A stretch of DNA of 64,000 bases from a virus, in IMG/VR virus record IMGVR_UViG_3300047160_019164, positions 28,464 through 92,463 of that record; one strand, given 5' to 3'. Below are positions 15,678 to 39,158 of this stretch, one piece after another. The notes beneath the pieces were generated by a model. That model had not been told where the DNA came from. It made no database searches and saw only the letters and a list, made by a program, of their open reading frames with translations. Each line of letters begins with the position of its first letter. Position 1 is the stretch's first letter. Position numbers and translations under genes: made by a program.

Positions 15678-16397
15678 GTGAAGAAGAAACTCGAGACTAC
15701 GAAGACCCCCGAGGCGGCAGCCGTCTATCTCGACCCCAAGAAGCTCGTCCCCAATCCCAAGAACCCACGTGTCAACGACGCGGTGGTTGACGACATCGTC
15801 AAGTCAATCGACAAGTTCGGGTTCACAGTGCCCATCGTCGTGCGCAAAGCGAACATGATGGTGGCGGCAGGGCATACGCGGTTGAAGGCGGCACTCAAGA
15901 TGGGGCTCAAGGAAGTCCCGGTTCGCATCCTCGACATCACGCAACGTCAGCTCGAAGCACTCACCATCGCCGACAACAAGCTCGGCGAGAAGGCCACGTG
16001 GGACGAGACGCTCTTGAAGGAGCAGCTCCAAGGGCTTCTCAAGGACGATTTCGACTTGAACATGCTCGGATTCGACGGGACCGAGTTGGCAAGCCTTCTC
16101 GCCGAGTCGCCTTCGGTGCTTGGTGGCGACTCCATTCCCGCCGAGGCAGCCAACGGCAAAGGCATGACGGACCCCGGCGCGCCGCAGGGCGATCCGTCGC
16201 ACGTGCGCATGGTGCAACTCTTCCTCGACGAGACGACGCACCCGGTGTTCCTCGAGCGCTGCAAGGTGCTCGGAAAGAAGTGGGGTCTCGACAACGTCAC
16301 GAAGGTCGTGATGAAGGCGCTCGAGGAGATCGCCAAGGAACCGAACAAGAAGGGCGAGAAGACCGATGTTCACGGTGCAGCTTCGAACGCAGGTTGA
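15678..16397 (+). CDS. ParB/Srx N-terminal domain protein with a putative C-terminal ribbon-helix-helix
   Basis: 'NPKNPR', 'SIDKFGFTVPIVV', 'AGHTRLKAA', 'IADNKL'. Confidence 0.85.
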   Translation: MKKKLETTKTPEAAAVYLDPKKLVPNPKNPRVNDAVVDDIVKSIDKFGFTVPIVVRKANMMVAAGHTRLKAALKMGLKEVPVRILDITQRQLEALTIADNKLGEKATWDETLLKEQLQGLLKDDFDLNMLGFDGTELASLLAESPSVLGGDSIPAEAANGKGMTDPGAPQGDPSHVRMVQLFLDETTHPVFLERCKVLGKKWGLDNVTKVVMKALEEIAKEPNKKGEKTDVHGAASNAG

Positions 16398-18356: not shown

Positions 18357-19042
18357 CGATGGCGAGTTGCACGGTCGTCATCCCGGCGCACAACGAAGAG
18401 GACACCATTGGTGGACTCGTGGAGTGCGCGCTCGTGCACGCGGACCGCGTCATCGTGGCGAACGACTCGAGCACCGATCGAACGGAACAAGTGGCGGAGG
18501 AAGCGGGTGCAATCGTCGCTCTGGTTCCGCGTGAGCGTCGTGGCTTGGTGGGCGTCTACTCGTTCGGGCTCCGGGTCGCCGTTGCTCTCCACCGCACGGC
18601 GCCGTGCGGTGGACGTGGGGCGTACGTCTGCGAGATGGACGCGGGCGGCAGCCACGACCCGCACGAGCTACCCAAGTTCTGGAAGGCTCTCGACGAAGGC
18701 GCCGACATCGCCGCGGGCTGTCGCTTTGCGTACGGGGGCGAGTACCTCGGGTCGTGGCAGCGGAAGAGCCTGAGCTACTTCGGCACCAAGCTCACCAACA
18801 TCGTGCACGGCACCAAGTGGTGCGACGCGACGAGTGGCTTCGTGGCGTACAGGTCATCGTCGCTCGATGCGCTCTTGCAGGTCCCCTACAAGTCGACGGG
18901 TCACTACTACCAGACGGAGATGCGTCTGCGCGCGCAGGCCATGGGCATGAAGACGACGGAAGTGCCCATCACGTACAGGAACAGCGGCTCGTCGCTCAAT
19001 TGGCGTAGCATCCGTGAGGCATTGTCCTTGGTGATGCGATAG
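18353..19042 (+). CDS. GT2 (GT-A) glycosyltransferase, DPM-synthase-like
   Basis: 'VVIPAHNEE', 'NDSSTDRT', 'MDAGGSHDP', 'DATSGF', 'EVPITY'. Confidence 0.88.
   Translation: MTMASCTVVIPAHNEEDTIGGLVECALVHADRVIVANDSSTDRTEQVAEEAGAIVALVPRERRGLVGVYSFGLRVAVALHRTAPCGGRGAYVCEMDAGGSHDPHELPKFWKALDEGADIAAGCRFAYGGEYLGSWQRKSLSYFGTKLTNIVHGTKWCDATSGFVAYRSSSLDALLQVPYKSTGHYYQTEMRLRAQAMGMKTTEVPITYRNSGSSLNWRSIREALSLVMR
18588..18613. repeat. Palindrome copy 5 (in GT2)
   Basis: Encodes HRTAPCGG. Confidence 0.95.
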
Positions 19043-19053
19043 GAGAAGTCACA

Positions 19054-19695
19054 ATGGCGCGAAAGATGGCAGCACACATTGGAGCGACGCCGGTCGTCGT
19101 TCATGACACGACGCTCGTCGACGTCGAAAAGCTCAACCCCGCGCCGTACAACCCGCGCAAGATCAAACCGGCCATGCTCTCGGCGTTGAAACAGAGCATC
19201 AAGGAACAGGGGTTCATTCACCCCATCGTCGTGCAGAAGAAGGGTATGGTCATTATCGCTGGCCACCAACGAGTGAAGGCGTTGCGTGAGCTGTGCAGCG
19301 AAACGGGGCAGCCGCTCCCCAAGATTCCCGCCATCATCCGCGACATCGGCGATCGAGTCGCCAAGAAGCTCAACATCACGCTGAACCGCGTCGGTGGTGA
19401 ATTCGATGCGGGGCTCCTCGGTGACTTGTTGCGTGACCTGCAAGACGATGTGCGCCTGACGACCGACGAACTGACTGGCATGGGCATCTCGGCCGACGAG
19501 CTGGACGGGCTTCTCAAGCTCGACGATCCGCCGCCCGAGAACGAAGAGATTCCAACCTTCGGACGCTCGGTCACCATGTCGCTTTCGTTCAGCGACACCA
19601 AGATGCGTGACCGCGTGAAGAAGAAGCTCGAGGAGCGTTCGCGTGTGGAAGGGAAGAAGAGCGGCGAGATCGTCGACAGCCTGATGCGGCGATGA
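19054..19695 (+). CDS. ParB/Srx N-terminal domain protein with a putative C-terminal ribbon-helix-helix
   Basis: 'PAPYNPR', 'SIKEQGFIHPIVV', 'IAGHQRVKA', 'NITLNRVGGEFD'. Confidence 0.85.
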   Translation: MARKMAAHIGATPVVVHDTTLVDVEKLNPAPYNPRKIKPAMLSALKQSIKEQGFIHPIVVQKKGMVIIAGHQRVKALRELCSETGQPLPKIPAIIRDIGDRVAKKLNITLNRVGGEFDAGLLGDLLRDLQDDVRLTTDELTGMGISADELDGLLKLDDPPPENEEIPTFGRSVTMSLSFSDTKMRDRVKKKLEERSRVEGKKSGEIVDSLMRR

Positions 19696-21396: not shown

Positions 21397-21648
21397 AGGT
21401 CGCTGGAAAGAGAAGTGGATCCCGCCGTGGGCTCCACATGTCGTCGGTGAGTACGACATGCCGCGCGAATTCCGCGAGGACGGGCTTCCCGAAGCGCAGT
21501 GGGTCGAGATGACCTGCACGCACGCGGAATGCGCAAGCCGGCCGAAGCCGCATTACCGAGTCCCGTGCACCAGTGGCAACGTCCGACAGCACGTCGCGCG
21601 GTTTGCACTGGTGCACATGCACAAGGATCCATTCGAAGGAGGGAAGTG

Positions 21649-22293
21649 ATGAGCGGGAAGTTCGTGGTGATAGAGGGTATTGATGGGTCTGGGAAGACGA
21701 GCTTGGTGAAGCTGATGGCGGCGGAGCTGCGGAAGCGTGGGTTCACCGTGCACGAGACGTACGAGCCCACGCACGGTGAGATCGGCGCGTTGGCGCGCAA
21801 GGCGTTCAGTGCGGAGTCGAAACACATCGACGACCCGCTTGCGTGGGCGAAGCAGGAGATGCTCCTCGCGGCCGATCGCATGCACCATCTGTTTGGTGAA
21901 GTGAACCCGGCGCTCGAGACGCACGACTACGTCATCTGCGATCGCTACGTCGGCAGCGGGTACGCGTACGGCATGGCGTCGCGTCCGAATTCCGTCTCCA
22001 CGTTGAGCGCGCATGGGTTCCTCTGCGGCATGTATGCGTTCGCGTGGAAGCCGGATTACTGCATCCTCGTCGACGTGCCGATCGAAGTGGCAGTGGAGCG
22101 CATGGCCAAGCGCACGGACAAGACGCGCTACGACGTCGACGTGGAGTTGCTCAAGCGGGTGCGTAGCATCTACAACAGCGAAGCCGCAGAGCATCGGCAC
22201 TGGTACACCATCCGTTCCGGTGCCATGACGGCCGAGCAGACATGTCTCGCAGCGCTCGATCGCACGGGCATCGGCCTGCGCAGAACCTCGTAA
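21649..22293 (+). CDS. tmk: Thymidylate kinase
   Basis: 'FVVIEGIDGSGKTS', 'EPT', 'AADR..H', 'CDRY..S..AY'. Confidence 0.92.
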   Translation: MSGKFVVIEGIDGSGKTSLVKLMAAELRKRGFTVHETYEPTHGEIGALARKAFSAESKHIDDPLAWAKQEMLLAADRMHHLFGEVNPALETHDYVICDRYVGSGYAYGMASRPNSVSTLSAHGFLCGMYAFAWKPDYCILVDVPIEVAVERMAKRTDKTRYDVDVELLKRVRSIYNSEAAEHRHWYTIRSGAMTAEQTCLAALDRTGIGLRRTS

Positions 22294-22400
22294 CCACCGC
22301 AAGCGAAAACGTCGGAGTGACGCGAGCGCGGTCCCTATAAGGTGGGGACTGTCTGTGGCAGGTCGGGCGCGAAACGGCGCTAGCTAGCGGCCTGCCGCAC

Positions 22401-22442
22401 CGAAAAAGTCCACCGCACGGCGCCGTGCGGTGGACTTTTTCG
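22401..22442. terminator. Bidirectional terminator-like 42-bp perfect palindrome containing a copy of the 24-bp repeat
   Basis: CGAAAAAGT-CCACCGCACGGCGCCGTGCGGTGG-ACTTTTTCG. Confidence 0.7.
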
Positions 22443-22494
22443 TATGAGAATCCCTCACGAAAAAGGAAATCGTCAGGGCTCGGACGATTTCATG

Positions 22495-22523
22495 TTGCAC
22501 AGGGATGCAATGCGGCTTATTGT
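22495..22523 (+). promoter_or_regulatory. Sigma70-like promoter of the early region
   Basis: TTGCAC-17 nt-TATTGT with an A-rich upstream tract; AGGAGG RBS and ATG22566 downstream. Confidence 0.6.
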
Positions 22524-22565
22524 TCTTCTCACGGTGAACACGACGGTGACGCAAGGAGGTGTGTG

Positions 22566-22790
22566 ATGGACATGCGACGTAGCCAAGCGGCAAAGGTGCT
22601 GGATAGTGTGCGCACGATGTTGGCCCAACGTGAGAGCCCGGAGAAGATCGAGAGGTATCTGTCGCTCCAGTTTGGCATCGAAGCCCTCGTCAAGTGCAGT
22701 GGCGAAGCGCACTCCAACGCGCACATCGACAATTGCGGTTGCTGTGCGCCGCGGTGGGGTTGGGTGGGCGATACCGTCAACATCAAGTAG
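22566..22790 (+). CDS. Small Cys-rich early protein
   Basis: AGGAGG RBS; HIDNCGCC. Confidence 0.6.
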   Translation: MDMRRSQAAKVLDSVRTMLAQRESPEKIERYLSLQFGIEALVKCSGEAHSNAHIDNCGCCAPRWGWVGDTVNIK

Positions 22791-22841
22791 GTCGAAACGG
22801 GCACCAGCCCGTCCGCACGTGATGCGTGCGCTGACGAGACC
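22790..22841 (+). ncRNA. Type II hammerhead ribozyme 1
   Basis: GGUC-GAAA-CGGGC(acca)GCCCG-UC^-CGCACG(ugaug)CGUGCG-CUGACGA-GACC; complete core and three stems. Confidence 0.9.
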
Positions 22842-22855
22842 AGGAGCAAGTAGCC

Positions 22856-23092
22856 ATGGACACCAGCAAGATCGCGATCGGGGAAGTCGTGAAGGCCACC
22901 GCCACCACGTATACGGGCAAGATGTACGGCGGCGGGCTCATCGCCGGGCAGCTCTACAAGGTGGTTGATATGAGTCACCTACGCTGTACGTTCGGCGGTC
23001 ACACCACGTTGTTCGTGCGCTCCGTCGACCGCAGCATCGACCGCGGCATCATTCCGGTGCGGAACGCGCACCTGGTGTTGGAGGTGGCGTGA
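22856..23092 (+). CDS. Hypothetical early protein
   Basis: AGGAG RBS directly after hammerhead 1. Confidence 0.65.
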   Translation: MDTSKIAIGEVVKATATTYTGKMYGGGLIAGQLYKVVDMSHLRCTFGGHTTLFVRSVDRSIDRGIIPVRNAHLVLEVA

Positions 23093-23373
23093 TGATCAAC
23101 CGTTATACGGTCGAGAACGCGGTGGTCGTTGCCAGCCTGCTCACGGAGCAGGGCTTCTTCGCGCATGTCTACTCGGACCAGGAGTCGGTCGTTTGCACCG
23201 ATGCGCCAGTAGCTAAGGTGCAAACGACCGAGCGCAAGGCGTTCGAGCCGATCGAAGTGGCGTACTACACCGGGACGTGGAAGCGGCAGGTGTGCAAGAC
23301 GCCCGCATCGTTCCGCAAGCTGGTGGACCGTTGCATCGACGAGGGCTGGGAAACGCGTACGCGCAAGGCGTGA
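23089..23373 (+). CDS. Hypothetical early protein
   Basis: GGAGG RBS; coupled to the upstream gene. Confidence 0.6.
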   Translation: MMINRYTVENAVVVASLLTEQGFFAHVYSDQESVVCTDAPVAKVQTTERKAFEPIEVAYYTGTWKRQVCKTPASFRKLVDRCIDEGWETRTRKA

Positions 23374-23377
23374 TGTA

Positions 23378-23439
23378 GGTCGAAACCACCGCACGGCGCC
23401 GTGCGGTGGTCCGGGCGTAAGGCGCCCGCTGACGAGACC
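23378..23439 (+). ncRNA. Type II hammerhead ribozyme 2 (stem III formed by the 24-bp palindrome)
   Basis: GGUC-GAAA-[CCACCGCACGGCGCCGUGCGGUGG]-UC^-CGGGCG(uaagg)CGCCCG-CUGACGA-GACC. Confidence 0.88.
23385..23410. repeat. Palindrome copy 7 (hammerhead 2 stem III); copy 6 is within 22401-22442
   Basis: ACCACCGCACGGCGCCGTGCGGTGGT. Confidence 0.95.
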
Positions 23440-23456
23440 ACGAGGAGCAAGCCGAC

Positions 23457-23828
23457 ATGAGGACCACGAGCTTCCACGGCCACGCGCTCAACCTCCCGGC
23501 CGGCCGACTCGGCCGCACTCAGCGCTACGCGCTGGAGCACATCTACGAAGAGGGACAGGACTCGACCGATCGTGCCCTCCACCTCCACGGTCGGGCAGCG
23601 CGCTACGCTAGCCGCTACGCCACCGCGCTCGCGAACATCGTCGACGCGAACCCGCACCTCTTCGCCGGCGGTCCGTTCGGACCGCGCGGCGGCCGCGGGT
23701 ACAAGTGGATTTGGCACGGACCGATCCAGGCACCCCGGTGCACCGCGCACGAGGACTGCCGCGCGTGCGTCGACGTCGCGCTCGCGTGCGATCAAGAAGC
23801 CACGCGGCATAACCCAAACAAGCGCTGA
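23457..23828 (+). CDS. Hypothetical early protein
   Basis: GAGGAG RBS directly after hammerhead 2. Confidence 0.6.
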   Translation: MRTTSFHGHALNLPAGRLGRTQRYALEHIYEEGQDSTDRALHLHGRAARYASRYATALANIVDANPHLFAGGPFGPRGGRGYKWIWHGPIQAPRCTAHEDCRACVDVALACDQEATRHNPNKR

Positions 23829-23856
23829 GGCGCAGCAACCCAAAGGAGCACAGAAG

Positions 23857-24813
23857 ATGCCCACCAAGAAGCCGTTCGATCGTGACAAGTGGCTCGAGGA
23901 GAAGCGCGCCAAGGTGCAGGACGCGAAGGAGATGCTGGAGACTGGGCTCACTGCACTGCGCACCAGCGACGAGTGGAAAGCGTGCATGACTGCCATCGCG
24001 AAGAACGCGCGCCTGCGTTACAGCGTTACCCGCTACAGTTTCGGAAACCAGATGATGCTCGCCTGTCAGTGCGCTGGTGCGAACCGACCGCAGCCCACGA
24101 GCGTCGCTACCTTCAAGGCGTGGCAGCGCGTCGGTCGCAGCGTGAAGAAGGGCGAGAAGGGGATGTTCATCCTCACGCCGAAGCCCTGGAAGCGCGAGGA
24201 GAAGCAAAGCGACGGCACCTCCAAGGAGCTGCGCGGCATGTCGTTCGGCGTGGCGCACGTGTTCGACATCGCGCAGACCGAAGGTGACGAGCTGCCTGTA
24301 CCGCCGCGCGTGACGGTGGACATCGAAGATGCCGCCACCTTCAGCGCGGACGTGGAGACGCTGCGCGAAGTGGCGCTCGCCATCGACGGCGAACCGGTGA
24401 GCGATATCGAGATCCGTGCCAACCAACCGGGCGACCCGACCAACGCGCAAGGCTGGTACGTCATCTCCACCAAGGCGATCGTCGTGGTGGAGCACCGCAG
24501 CCGCGCTCACATGTTCAAGACGCTCGTCCACGAGGTGGCGCACGCGTTGCTCCATCCCAAGGGCGACCACCACTCTACGCCCGAGCGCGAGGTCGAAGCT
24601 GAATCGACGGCGTTCATCGTCTGCCAGGTGCTCGGTCTCAGTACCGACGCCTTTAGCTTCCCGTACGTCGAGTCGTGGGCGCAGCGCGCGAGCTGCACGT
24701 CGAACGACATGATCGCCAAGTGCGGCGACCGCATCACCAAGGCGTCGCATACCATCTTGGATGCGCTCCTCGGCAAGCAAGTCGAAGAGCCCAACGAGGA
24801 AGAGGCTGCGTAA
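23857..24813 (+). CDS. ardC: ArdC-like antirestriction protein (ssDNA-binding N-domain plus zincin-like HExxH domain)
   Basis: 'YSFGNQ', 'VATFKAWQRVGRSVKKGEKG', 'VFDIAQTEG', 'LVHEVAH', 'EVEAESTA'. Confidence 0.85.
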   Translation: MPTKKPFDRDKWLEEKRAKVQDAKEMLETGLTALRTSDEWKACMTAIAKNARLRYSVTRYSFGNQMMLACQCAGANRPQPTSVATFKAWQRVGRSVKKGEKGMFILTPKPWKREEKQSDGTSKELRGMSFGVAHVFDIAQTEGDELPVPPRVTVDIEDAATFSADVETLREVALAIDGEPVSDIEIRANQPGDPTNAQGWYVISTKAIVVVEHRSRAHMFKTLVHEVAHALLHPKGDHHSTPEREVEAESTAFIVCQVLGLSTDAFSFPYVESWAQRASCTSNDMIAKCGDRITKASHTILDALLGKQVEEPNEEEAA

Positions 24814-31862: not shown

Positions 31863-32182
31863 TGGGCGAAGCCAAGGAACGCGCCAAGCTCGGCATCGTC
31901 CCCGACGAGACCGCACGGCGCCGTGCGGTGGAGGAGTTGCCCTTCGAGACCTACGCGCGCAAGCCGCGCGAAGTGCGTGCGCACCAGATGGAGGAAGACA
32001 CCCTCATCGGGAAAGTGCGGCTGCGGAAAGGCGACTACGTTGTGCTGTGGGAGGGACAACTCATGCCCTTCGACCGTGAGACCTTCGAGATGGAGTATGC
32101 TCGCAAGAAGGAGACCTCTGATGATCGTCAAGACGAAGAAGGGGTATGGCGCATCGCGAAGCTCCGCGGAGACGCGCTATGA
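31859..32182 (+). CDS. Hypothetical protein (contains the palindrome in frame)
   Basis: Coupled ORF; 'TLIG..KGDYVV..FE..Y'. Confidence 0.55.
   Translation: MMGEAKERAKLGIVPDETARRRAVEELPFETYARKPREVRAHQMEEDTLIGKVRLRKGDYVVLWEGQLMPFDRETFEMEYARKKETSDDRQDEEGVWRIAKLRGDAL
31910..31929. repeat. Palindrome copy 9 (coding)
   Basis: 20-bp core. Confidence 0.9.
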
Positions 32183-33870: not shown

Positions 33871-33894
33871 CCACCGCACGGCGCCGTGCGGTGG
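33871..33894. repeat. Palindrome copy 10 (3 nt upstream of the tRNA)
   Basis: Perfect 24-mer. Confidence 0.95.
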
Positions 33895-33897
33895 CAT

Positions 33898-33971
33898 TGC
33901 GCGGTAGAGCAACGGCAGCTCGCTAGGGGTTCATACCCTGGAAGTAGGAGGTTCGATTCCTCCCCGCGCGA
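33898..33971 (+). tRNA. Met-like tRNA with an atypical anticodon arm (CAT or TCA register)
   Basis: Acceptor TGCGCGG/CCGCGCG; D-arm GAGC/GCTC; T-arm GGAGG-TTCGATT-CCTCC; anticodon arm CTAGGG-GTTCATA-CCCTGG. Confidence 0.8.
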
Positions 33972-39053: not shown

Positions 39054-39081
39054 CTCCACCGCACGGCGCCGTGCGGTGGAG
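39054..39081. repeat. Palindrome copy 12 (4 nt upstream of tRNA-Thr)
   Basis: Perfect 28-mer. Confidence 0.95.
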
Positions 39082-39085
39082 CTTG

Positions 39086-39158
39086 GCTGACGTAGCTCAA
39101 TCGGTAGAGCACCTGCTTTGTAAACAGGTGGTTATGGGTTCAACTCCCATCGTCAGCT
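39086..39158 (+). tRNA. tRNA-Thr(TGT)
   Basis: GCTGACG/CGTCAGC acceptor; GCTC-AATCGGTA-GAGC; anticodon loop TTTGTAA; ATGGG-TTCAACT-CCCAT. Confidence 0.92.

What the first reader, a model, noticed from the sequence alone, without database searches (positions are those of the whole stretch)
23378..23439. Hammerhead ribozyme 2 uses the genome palindrome as its stem III
SEEN: a second type II hammerhead about 590 nt downstream has the same core (GTAGGTCGAAAC...GTC...CTGACGAGACCA). Its stem I differs but is fully compensated (CGGGCG/CGCCCG), and stem III is the 24-bp palindrome. It again sits between a stop codon and a GAGGAG RBS. The covariation between the two copies supports a real structure. 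INFERENCE: the palindrome is placed where a hairpin is structurally neutral, so the same DNA serves as both a DNA site and a ribozyme helix.
Basis: partly seen in the sequence, partly recalled or inferred. Interest (0 to 1): 0.8.

Follow-up and report, generated by a model that had tools for sequence, protein, structure and literature searches.

The report
Phage hammerhead ribozyme with repeat-palindrome stem
A soil phage carries two ordinary self-cleaving hammerhead RNAs between small early genes, and in the second one a helix that can take any sequence is formed by one copy of a 24-base palindrome that the phage repeats 26 times across its genome.

Summary
Window 23378-23439 (+) is a complete type II hammerhead. 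It has stem II GGUC/GACC, GAAA and the A15.1-U16.1 pair. Stem III is the 24-nt palindrome at 23386-23409. The cleavage triplet is GUC (cut after C23411), stem I is a 17-nt hairpin, and the core strand is CUGACGA.

A sister copy lies at 22790-22841. A descriptor search finds only these two in the 92-kb genome and none in 100 shuffles. A covariance model built only from unrelated viral contigs scores them 69 and 64 bits.

This exact subclass is widespread: at least 120 IMG/VR contigs and at least 120 bacterial contigs, often in pairs a few hundred nt apart between a stop codon and an RBS. Perreault et al. 2011 described this arrangement. The ribozyme is therefore a new member of a known family.

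The unusual part is stem III. It is one of 26 genome copies of an invariant palindrome. None of 311 sampled relatives has a perfectly palindromic stem III, though its length is within the family range.

Whether the palindrome is a DNA site is not shown. It is probably a secondary insertion tolerated, or exploited, in a sequence-neutral helix. No relatives of this phage and no RNA data were available.

Other first-stage notes of this scan describe the same stretch of the same genome. No note on other DNA was returned.

The parts
23378..23439 (+). Hammerhead ribozyme 2 (type II), whole motif
   Evidence: Sequence; MFE three-way junction; descriptor hit; 64.3 bits to the independent model R1; 21.9 bits to Rfam RF02276, below its cut-off
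23386..23409 (+). Stem III of ribozyme 2, one of 26 genome copies of the 24-nt perfect palindrome. It supplies the C15.2-G16.2 pair and folds as 10 bp plus a GCGC loop
23410..23411 (+). U16.1 and C17; predicted cleavage 3' of C23411
   Evidence: Position in the consensus. 158 of 170 relatives have C17. Cleavage itself was not tested
23412..23428 (+). Stem I hairpin, 17 nt: 6 bp, loop UAAGG closed by G-C
   Evidence: The 17-nt stem I with loop U-N-A-N-G is shared by 74 of 170 viral relatives
23429..23435 (+). Core strand CUGACGA (C3-A9)
22790..22841 (+). Hammerhead ribozyme 1 (type II). Short stem III (5 bp plus A-U, loop ACCA). Predicted cleavage after C22813. Its first G is the G of the upstream TAG stop
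   Evidence: 69.0 bits to R1
22814..23411 (+). Predicted 598-nt RNA released by both cleavages. It has a 5'-OH followed by the stem I hairpin of ribozyme 1, and a 3' end formed by the palindrome hairpin plus UC with a 2',3'-cyclic phosphate. It carries genes B and C
   Evidence: Inference from the two cleavage sites and hammerhead chemistry
22566..22790 (+). Gene A (74 aa, no family match), RBS AAGGAGG at 22553-22559
   Evidence: GC3 profile; sequence; no Pfam or PHROG hit
22856..23092 (+). Gene B (78 aa, no family match), AGGAG at 22842-22846 directly after stem II of ribozyme 1
23089..23373 (+). Gene C (94 aa, no family match); its stop codon lies 12 nt before the palindrome
23457..23828 (+). 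Gene D (123 aa, orphan), RBS GAGGAG at 23442-23447, 2 nt after stem II of ribozyme 2
   Evidence: only itself found among 5.8 billion proteins
22403..22440 (.). Another palindrome copy (22410-22433), extended by A-tract and T-tract flanks into a canonical bidirectional intrinsic terminator, 976 nt upstream of the ribozyme copy
   Evidence: 9 extra flanking pairs
22495..22523 (+). Sigma-70-like promoter candidate (TTGCAC, 17 nt, TATTGT) that would start the transcript carrying both ribozymes. It is part of a roughly 150-bp cassette duplicated elsewhere in the genome
   Evidence: Sequence; duplicate cassette alignment. Not called by the simple scan; inferred only

Best explanation
Window 23378-23439 encodes a genuine type II hammerhead self-cleaving ribozyme. 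It is the second of a pair that punctuates an early polycistronic phage transcript: promoter near 22495, gene A, ribozyme 1, genes B and C, ribozyme 2, gene D, then an ArdC-like anti-restriction gene. Each ribozyme sits between a stop codon and the next Shine-Dalgarno sequence. Cleavage after C22813 and C23411 would cut the transcript into separate mRNAs. The upstream piece would end in the stem III hairpin with a 2',3'-cyclic phosphate. The downstream piece would begin with a 5'-OH and the stem I hairpin, followed by about 12 single-stranded nt and the RBS. In ribozyme 2 the whole of stem III is one copy of the phage's dispersed 24-nt palindrome. Stem III faces away from the stem I/II contact and tolerates any paired sequence and many lengths, so the palindrome can serve as this helix without harming catalysis. 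It most likely got there secondarily, by insertion into or replacement of a shorter ancestral hairpin, as it did in coding loops elsewhere in the genome. A by-product is that the B-C mRNA acquires a very stable 3'-terminal hairpin, like the many genes in this genome that end 0-3 nt before a palindrome copy. Shown here: the motif, its family membership, the identity of stem III with the repeat, and the insertion character of the repeat in one gene. Inferred: self-cleavage, the fate of the fragments, and the order of events.
For: All 13 conserved core positions are present, together with G10.1-C11.1, A15.1-U16.1, C15.2-G16.2 and the GUC triplet. The MFE is the three-way junction, and for ribozyme 2 it persists in a 150-nt context. 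There are 2 descriptor hits against 0 in 100 shuffles. The two copies score 69 and 64 bits to a model built from other viruses. The same subclass occurs in at least 120 IMG/VR contigs and at least 120 bacterial genome contigs of many phyla. Of the viral loci, 32 of 115 have more than one copy, with a median spacing of 424 nt. Relatives also sit after stop codons and before GGAG. Perreault et al. 2011 (PMC3088659) report that multiple hammerheads flank single genes or short gene blocks in prophages, that type II is common in bacteria, and that ardA lies directly downstream of a hammerhead in Legionella. An ArdC-like gene follows gene D, downstream of ribozyme 2, here. The stem III hairpin of ribozyme 2 (26 nt counting A15.1 and U16.1) lies within the family range of 12-38 nt: 30 of 170 viral relatives and 89 of 141 bacterial relatives are at least as long. 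The palindrome is an insertion relative to homologues in the GT2 gene. It is followed by UCCGGG, not a U-tract, so it should not terminate transcription here.
Against: No cleavage assay and no RNA reads exist for this phage. Rfam's Hammerhead_II model stays below its gathering score. No stem I/stem II tertiary contact could be identified: loop I has no 4-bp complement in the 3' tail, and this subclass as a whole shows no enrichment for such pairing. Fast cleavage at physiological Mg2+ is therefore not assured. No relative of this phage was found, so conservation of ribozyme 2 and the ancestral state of stem III are unknown. A stem this strong could pause RNA polymerase or pair with other palindrome copies in trans.
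Confidence: 0.75

Rival explanations
1. The palindrome is primarily a double-stranded DNA site, for example for one of the two ParB-N proteins of the phage, that must be spread along the genome. Ribozyme stem III is simply one of the few harmless places to keep a copy.
For: The 18-nt core is invariant in 26 of 26 copies, with no compensatory variants. The symmetry runs through the central GGCGCC. Spacing is more even than random (CV 0.54, P about 0.0005). Copies are kept in frame inside long genes. Two ParB_N proteins are encoded at window 15732-15977 and 19117-19377.
Against: No binding was tested. The ribozyme copy is only 976 nt from the next copy, so spacing does not require it. Five copies carry 4-9 extra, sequence-variable flanking pairs, and two are U-tract terminators, which is selection on a hairpin rather than on a duplex site. 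GGCGCC is not otherwise special in the genome: 70 copies against 57 expected.
Confidence: 0.35
2. The palindrome is mainly an RNA element, a gene-end hairpin that stabilises or terminates transcripts. Ribozyme 2 and the hairpin work as one device: the ribozyme trims the transcript two nucleotides after the hairpin, giving the B-C mRNA a defined, protected 3' end.
For: At least 14 of 26 copies lie 0-53 nt after a + strand stop codon, many of them 0-3 nt after it. Extended stems and two canonical terminators occur among the copies. Both tRNA genes are preceded by a copy 3 and 6 nt upstream. In one other phage locus (L040) the stem III hairpin of two hammerheads is identical to a U-tract terminator hairpin nearby.
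Against: A structural hairpin does not need an invariant sequence or a palindromic loop. Copies inside the polymerase, SbcC-like and GT2 genes would be harmful as terminators or processing sites. None of 311 relatives uses a palindromic stem III.
Confidence: 0.3
3. Ribozyme 2 is a disabled relic. Insertion of the palindrome, which acts as a terminator or strong pause, or misfolds by pairing in trans, has made it non-functional, and the core is intact only because the event is recent.
For: The same hairpin terminates transcription-like units elsewhere (22403-22440). There are no relatives to show purifying selection. Stem III is at the upper limit of stem length for the family: 11 pairs, matched by only 2 of 170 relatives.
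Against: Every core position, both closing pairs of stem III and a fully compensated stem I are intact. No U-tract follows the hairpin. Long stem III hairpins of 27 nt are the commonest form in the bacterial relatives. Gene D, with a strong RBS, depends on read-through.
Confidence: 0.1
4. The 598-nt RNA released between the two ribozymes is ligated into a circle. The junction would rebuild one chimeric hammerhead, because both copies share the same core and stem II.
For: The termini would be a 5'-OH and a 2',3'-cyclic phosphate, the substrates of RtcB-type ligases. Core and stem II are identical in the two copies. Perreault et al. raised this possibility for clustered hammerheads.
Against: No RtcB is encoded by the phage. 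Perreault et al. looked for circular or spliced products and found none. The shared stem II is a feature of the whole subclass, not of this pair.
Confidence: 0.05

Closest known systems
Type II hammerhead ribozymes of bacteria and prophages (Perreault et al. 2011, PMC3088659; Rfam RF02276, clan Hammerhead)
   Same: Same core, same permutation (stems I and III capped, stem II open), GUC cleavage site and intergenic position. Occurs in pairs or arrays flanking one or a few small phage genes, close to an anti-restriction gene.
   Different: Lacks the loop I / 3'-tail pseudoknot of the published consensus. It belongs to a subclass with a 17-nt stem I and U-N-A-N-G loop that scores poorly with the Rfam model. 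Stem III of copy 2 is a perfect palindrome that is also a genome-wide repeat.
Hammerheads with palindromic stem III loops (avocado sunblotch viroid, newt satellite, Penelope-like elements; reviewed in PMC6765202)
   Same: A self-complementary stem III sequence, which in principle permits intermolecular pairing of two ribozymes.
   Different: Those have a very short, unstable stem III and need dimers to cleave. Here stem III is a long, very stable intramolecular hairpin and no dimer is needed. They are type I or III and eukaryotic or viroid-borne.
Dispersed palindromic elements that insert in frame into genes and into intergenic hairpins (Rickettsia palindromic elements; bacterial REP elements). 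Named from my own knowledge, not tested here
   Same: A short palindromic unit repeated many times. It is found after stop codons and also in frame within proteins, and it appears as an insertion relative to homologues.
   Different: Only 24 nt, with a perfectly invariant core, in a phage. No REP-type Y1 transposase is encoded. None of those elements is known to form a ribozyme helix.

Membership tests
Hammerhead ribozyme, type II | Core strand C3-U4-G5-A6-N7-G8-A9 | tested here: met
   CUGACGA at 23429-23435 and 22831-22837
Hammerhead ribozyme, type II | G12-A13-A14 followed by the A15.1-U16.1 pair, and cleavage triplet N-U-H | tested here: met
   GAAA at 23382-23385; U23410; C23411; triplet GUC, with the G being the last base of the palindrome
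Hammerhead ribozyme, type II | Three helices around the core with the G10.1-C11.1 pair | tested here: met
   Stem II GGUC/GACC with G10.1-C11.1, stem III 10-11 bp, stem I 6-7 bp. The MFE fold is the junction. Stems I and III covary in relatives
Hammerhead ribozyme, type II | Permutation: stems I and III closed by loops, stem II open | tested here: met
   Order GAAA, stem III, GUC, stem I, CUGANGA along the strand
Hammerhead ribozyme, type II | [quoted passage not shown] | tested here: not met
   No such complement for either copy. In 74 relatives with the 17-nt stem I, loop-tail complementarity equals the permuted control (2.65 against 2.76). In 90 relatives with longer stem I it is enriched (5.23 against 3.93). 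Perreault et al. state that only about 40% of hammerheads use the pseudoknot, so it is not obligatory
Hammerhead ribozyme, type II | Score at or above the Rfam RF02276 gathering threshold (37 bits) | tested here: not met
   21.9 bits for ribozyme 2, no hit for ribozyme 1. A model of the subclass gives 64-69 bits
Hammerhead ribozyme, type II | Site-specific self-cleavage giving a 2',3'-cyclic phosphate and a 5'-OH | not testable with these tools
   Needs transcription and cleavage assays or end-specific RNA-seq
Clustered phage/prophage hammerheads flanking genes | Two or more hammerheads on the coding strand within a few hundred nt, in intergenic gaps | tested here: met
   Spacing is 588 nt. 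Both lie between a stop codon and an RBS. 32 of 115 viral loci show the same pattern, median spacing 424 nt
Intrinsic terminator (for the palindrome copy inside ribozyme 2) | GC-rich hairpin followed by a U-tract | tested here: not met
   Followed by UCCGGGCG. In contrast the copy at 22410-22433 has A7/T7-type flanks

The most novel reading that the evidence does not exclude
The 24-nt palindrome is a sequence-specifically recognised element, bound as DNA by a phage ParB-like protein or as an RNA hairpin by a phage protein, that has been exapted at least three ways in one genome: as a terminator hairpin, as peptide-coding insertions and as helix III of a ribozyme. Ribozyme 2 would then be a natural protein-responsive hammerhead, whose cleavage, and so the separation of genes B-C from gene D and the ArdC-like gene, is tuned by occupancy of its stem III.
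Probability: 0.12. Interest if true: 0.65.

Novelty: new member of a known kind. Interest (0 to 1): 0.33.

Why it matters
As a ribozyme it adds little. Type II hammerheads that bracket small phage genes have been known since 2011, and this subclass is common. There are two modest points of value. First, it is a natural helix-swap experiment: two sister ribozymes with the same core differ by a 5-bp and a 10-bp palindromic stem III, a ready-made pair for testing how stem III length and stability affect cleavage and the stability of the released mRNA. Second, it is one more constraint on what the phage's 26-copy palindrome is. The palindrome survives only where 24 extra nucleotides are harmless: after stop codons, in variable protein loops and in a sequence-neutral ribozyme helix. 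The survey also shows that a large, widespread subclass of type II hammerheads (17-nt stem I, no pseudoknot) is missed by the current Rfam model.

Tried and rejected
- Rfam at gathering and at E up to 10 gave no hammerhead call. RF02276 run directly gave 21.9 bits, below its cut-off.
- No relative of the locus was found. blastn of 22400-24000 against 50,697 phage records gave no match. Gene D found no relative in IMG/VR and only itself among 5.8 billion proteins.
- The exact 24-mer has 0 hits in IMG/VR and 0 in GTDB genome contigs.
- The 18-nt core matched 117 metagenome contigs. Each has a single copy, none has the full 24-mer and none resembles this genome, so I treat them as unrelated GC-rich hairpins.
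- Sequencing runs: no RNA holder listed.
- Contigs of four soil DNA runs laid on 22300-24300 were low-depth pieces identical to the window, or hammerhead-only matches from other organisms. No variant of stem III was seen and nothing can be concluded about strains.
- Four IMG/VR records with GT2 homologues have no hammerhead matching R1. Their fetched loci around the GT2 gene (up to 21 kb each) hold no repeated palindrome. They are not useful relatives.
- The pseudoknot proposed for ribozyme 1 (loop UGAU with AUCA upstream) is not shared by ribozyme 2 and not enriched in the subclass.
- No RtcB ligase and no IS200/REP-type Y1 transposase are encoded by the phage.
- The near-match to the core strand at 31902-31912, abutting another palindrome copy, has one mismatch, lies in coding sequence and has no R1 hit. 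I take it as chance.
- Apparent recurrences of stem III hairpins outside hammerheads in L285 and L319 turned out to be further hammerhead copies.
- PHROGs and Pfam gave nothing for genes A-D.

Full report
WHAT IS THERE. The window is bases 28464-92463 of a 92,463-bp IMG/VR virus record rated complete, at 62% G+C. Low-depth contigs identical to it occur in soil metagenomes.

Reading 23378-23439 on the + strand gives, in order:
- GGUC
- GAAA
- a 24-nt perfect palindrome (23386-23409)
- UC
- a 17-nt hairpin (6 bp, loop UAAGG)
- CUGACGA
- GACC

In hammerhead numbering this is the 3' strand of stem II ending in C11.1, then G12-A13-A14-A15.1, stem III, U16.1-C17, stem I, C3-A9, and the 5' strand of stem II starting with G10.1. 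The first and last bases of the palindrome supply the C15.2-G16.2 pair.

The sister element at 22790-22841 has the same core and stem II and a short stem III (5 bp, loop ACCA). Its stem I differs from that of copy 2 at two pairs, both compensated. Both fold into the three-way junction as their minimum free energy structure (-38.0 and -24.7 kcal/mol). For copy 2 the fold persists in a 150-nt context.

IS IT MORE THAN CHANCE. A descriptor requiring GAAA, a hairpin closed by A-U, a non-G cleavage base, a second hairpin, CUGANGA and a closing helix of at least 3 bp finds exactly these two sites on both strands of the genome. It finds none in 100 dinucleotide-preserving shuffles.

Rfam does not call them. 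Its Hammerhead_II model gives 21.9 bits for copy 2, against a threshold of 37, and nothing for copy 1. I therefore built a model without using the window.
- Eighteen gap-free examples from 14 contigs were aligned (A1) and turned into model R1.
- R1 scores the window copies at 69.0 and 64.3 bits (E about 1e-20 and 1e-18). The next hit scores 9 bits.

The core strands were part of the search pattern, so roughly 18 positions match by design. The GUC triplet, both hairpins and the loop I pattern were not in the pattern.

THE FAMILY. Among 170 descriptor-verified hammerheads in 115 viral loci:
- C15.2-G16.2 is present in 166 and C17 in 158.
- The stem III hairpin is 12-38 nt long, and 30 are at least as long as that of copy 2.
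- 74 have a 17-nt stem I with a G-C closed U-N-A-N-G loop. UGAUG and UAAGG, the two window loops, are among the commonest.

A stricter pattern for this subclass finds at least 120 contigs in GTDB genomes. They span Bacteroidales, Gastranaerophilales, Synergistaceae, Burkholderia, Paraburkholderia, Acidobacteriota, Rhizobiales and others. There the commonest stem III hairpin is 27 nt.

Thirty-two of 115 viral loci hold more than one copy, with a median spacing of 424 nt. Flanks typically show a stop codon just upstream and GGAG downstream. This matches Perreault et al. [quoted passage not shown]

That paper's type II consensus includes a pseudoknot between loop I and the 3' tail. I tested this. 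Relatives with a stem I of 20 nt or more show it: mean longest complement 5.23 against 3.93 in permuted controls. The 17-nt class, including both window copies, does not: 2.65 against 2.76 downstream and 3.04 against 3.10 upstream. The tertiary contact of this subclass is therefore unidentified, and the pseudoknot suggested for copy 1 in another first-stage note is not supported.

CONTEXT. The GC3 profile and the sequence define these elements:
- gene A, 22566-22790
- ribozyme 1, whose first G is the G of the TAG stop of gene A
- AGGAG, then gene B, 22856-23092
- gene C, 23089-23373
- ribozyme 2
- GAGGAG, then gene D, 23457-23828
- a larger gene whose product carries ArdC-N and zincin-peptidase domains

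Genes A-D have no family match, and gene D is an orphan.

Upstream, a palindrome copy at 22410-22433 with A-tract and T-tract flanks forms a textbook bidirectional terminator. It is followed by a sigma-70-like promoter candidate at 22495-23 (that is, 22495-22523). This roughly 150-bp terminator-promoter cassette is duplicated elsewhere in the genome.

The two cuts would release a 598-nt B-C RNA (22814-23411). Perreault et al. noted ardA directly downstream of hammerheads in Legionella, so the link to anti-restriction genes recurs here, with gene D in between.

THE PALINDROME.
- It occurs 26 times in the genome and 18 times in the window.
- The 18-nt core is invariant in all copies. Changes occur only in the outer three bases and are not compensated.
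- About 14-18 copies follow + strand stop codons, several within 0-3 nt. At least four lie well inside long ORFs.
- Both tRNA genes are preceded by a copy, 3 and 6 nt upstream.
- Spacing is more regular than random: CV 0.54 against 0.96, P about 0.0005.
- Five of the 20 fully symmetric copies have 4-9 additional flanking pairs of variable sequence. The chance of this is about 0.4% per copy.
- In the GT2 glycosyltransferase the palindrome encodes 6-7 residues that are absent from 12 of 13 homologues at 47-61% identity. There it is an insertion.
- It is absent from IMG/VR and GTDB contigs. The metagenome contigs were scanned only for the 18-nt core, and none of the 117 hits carried the full 24-mer.
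- The phage encodes two ParB-N proteins but no Y1 transposase.

These features pull in two directions. Invariance, central symmetry, regular spacing and coding copies argue for sequence-specific recognition or copy-paste spread. Extended stems, U-tract copies and gene-end positions argue that the hairpin is used at the RNA level at some sites.

HOW UNUSUAL IS STEM III OF COPY 2. Its length is ordinary for the family. Its sequence is not. None of 170 viral or 141 bacterial relatives has a perfectly palindromic stem III.

In only one other locus (L040) does a stem III hairpin recur outside a hammerhead. There it is a generic UUCG-loop hairpin that also forms a U-tract terminator. Two apparent cases in bacterial contigs were further hammerheads. 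Loci were at most 15 kb, so recurrences further away would have been missed.

INTERPRETATION. The best reading is that ribozyme 2 is a working member of a common phage hammerhead subclass, and that its stem III was taken over by the dispersed palindrome because this helix accepts any stable hairpin. After cleavage the palindrome becomes the 3'-terminal hairpin of the B-C mRNA. This mirrors the position of the palindrome behind many other genes.

The claim that the palindrome is a DNA site remains open. I put it at about one in three, roughly level with a mainly RNA-level role, and the two are not exclusive. The ribozyme copy is not needed to keep the spacing even, because another copy lies 976 nt upstream.

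LIMITS.
- There is no cleavage assay and no RNA data.
- No relative of this phage was found, so neither conservation of ribozyme 2 nor the ancestral stem III can be assessed.
- The literature searched holds no report of a dispersed repeat forming a hammerhead helix, but that library is incomplete.

VERDICT. The ribozyme is a new member of a known family in a known arrangement. The palindromic stem III is a real and so far unique oddity of modest interest. Its dual-use interpretation is plausible but untested.

Noticed in passing
window 22403-22555 and genome 24969-25125 (the latter lies before the window): A roughly 150-bp cassette is duplicated almost exactly. It consists of a palindrome with A/T-tract flanks (terminator), a second hairpin and a TTGCAC-17-TATTGT promoter-like site, up to the RBS of the next gene. 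It looks like a reused terminator-promoter module.
   Followed up: partly
window 33871-33894 with tRNA 33898-33971; window 39056-39079 with tRNA 39086-39158: Each of the two tRNA genes is immediately preceded by a perfect palindrome copy, 3 and 6 nt upstream of the tRNA 5' end.
   Followed up: no
window 18589-18612, within the GT2 gene ending at 19042: Here the palindrome encodes HRTAPC(G), which is an insertion in a variable loop relative to 12 of 13 homologous glycosyltransferases (alignment A2).
   Followed up: yes
window 23572-24813 (real start probably near 23830): The ORF downstream of gene D has an ArdC N-terminal domain (E 2e-11) plus an IrrE/M78-like zincin peptidase motif. It is an anti-restriction-type early gene in the ribozyme-punctuated operon.
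   Followed up: partly
whole genome G000: CTGCAG (PstI-type site) is absent: 0 copies against about 21 expected from a Markov model. This suggests avoidance of a host restriction system. GGCGCC, the centre of the palindrome, is not avoided (70 copies against 57 expected).
   Followed up: partly
window 15732-15977 and 19117-19377: Two ParB_N-domain proteins (47 and 39 bits) are encoded near the GT2 gene. They are candidates for binding the palindrome, untested.
   Followed up: no
loci L003-L122 (IMG/VR) and L250-L369 (GTDB contigs): Type II hammerheads split into two classes. One has a stem I of 20 nt or more and the published loop I / 3'-tail pseudoknot. The other has a 17-nt stem I with a U-N-A-N-G loop and no detectable pseudoknot. 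The second class is widespread across bacterial phyla and scores below threshold with Rfam RF02276, at least for the two copies here.
   Followed up: partly
L040, reverse strand about 6694 of the reversed locus: In another phage contig the stem III hairpin of two hammerheads (GC-rich stem with a UUCG loop) is identical to the hairpin of a nearby U-tract terminator. This is the only other case seen of a stem III sequence reused outside a ribozyme.
   Followed up: partly
window 21499-22293: A thymidylate-kinase-like ORF (PHROG 761, E 3e-29) ends the transcription unit upstream of the terminator copy of the palindrome.
   Followed up: no
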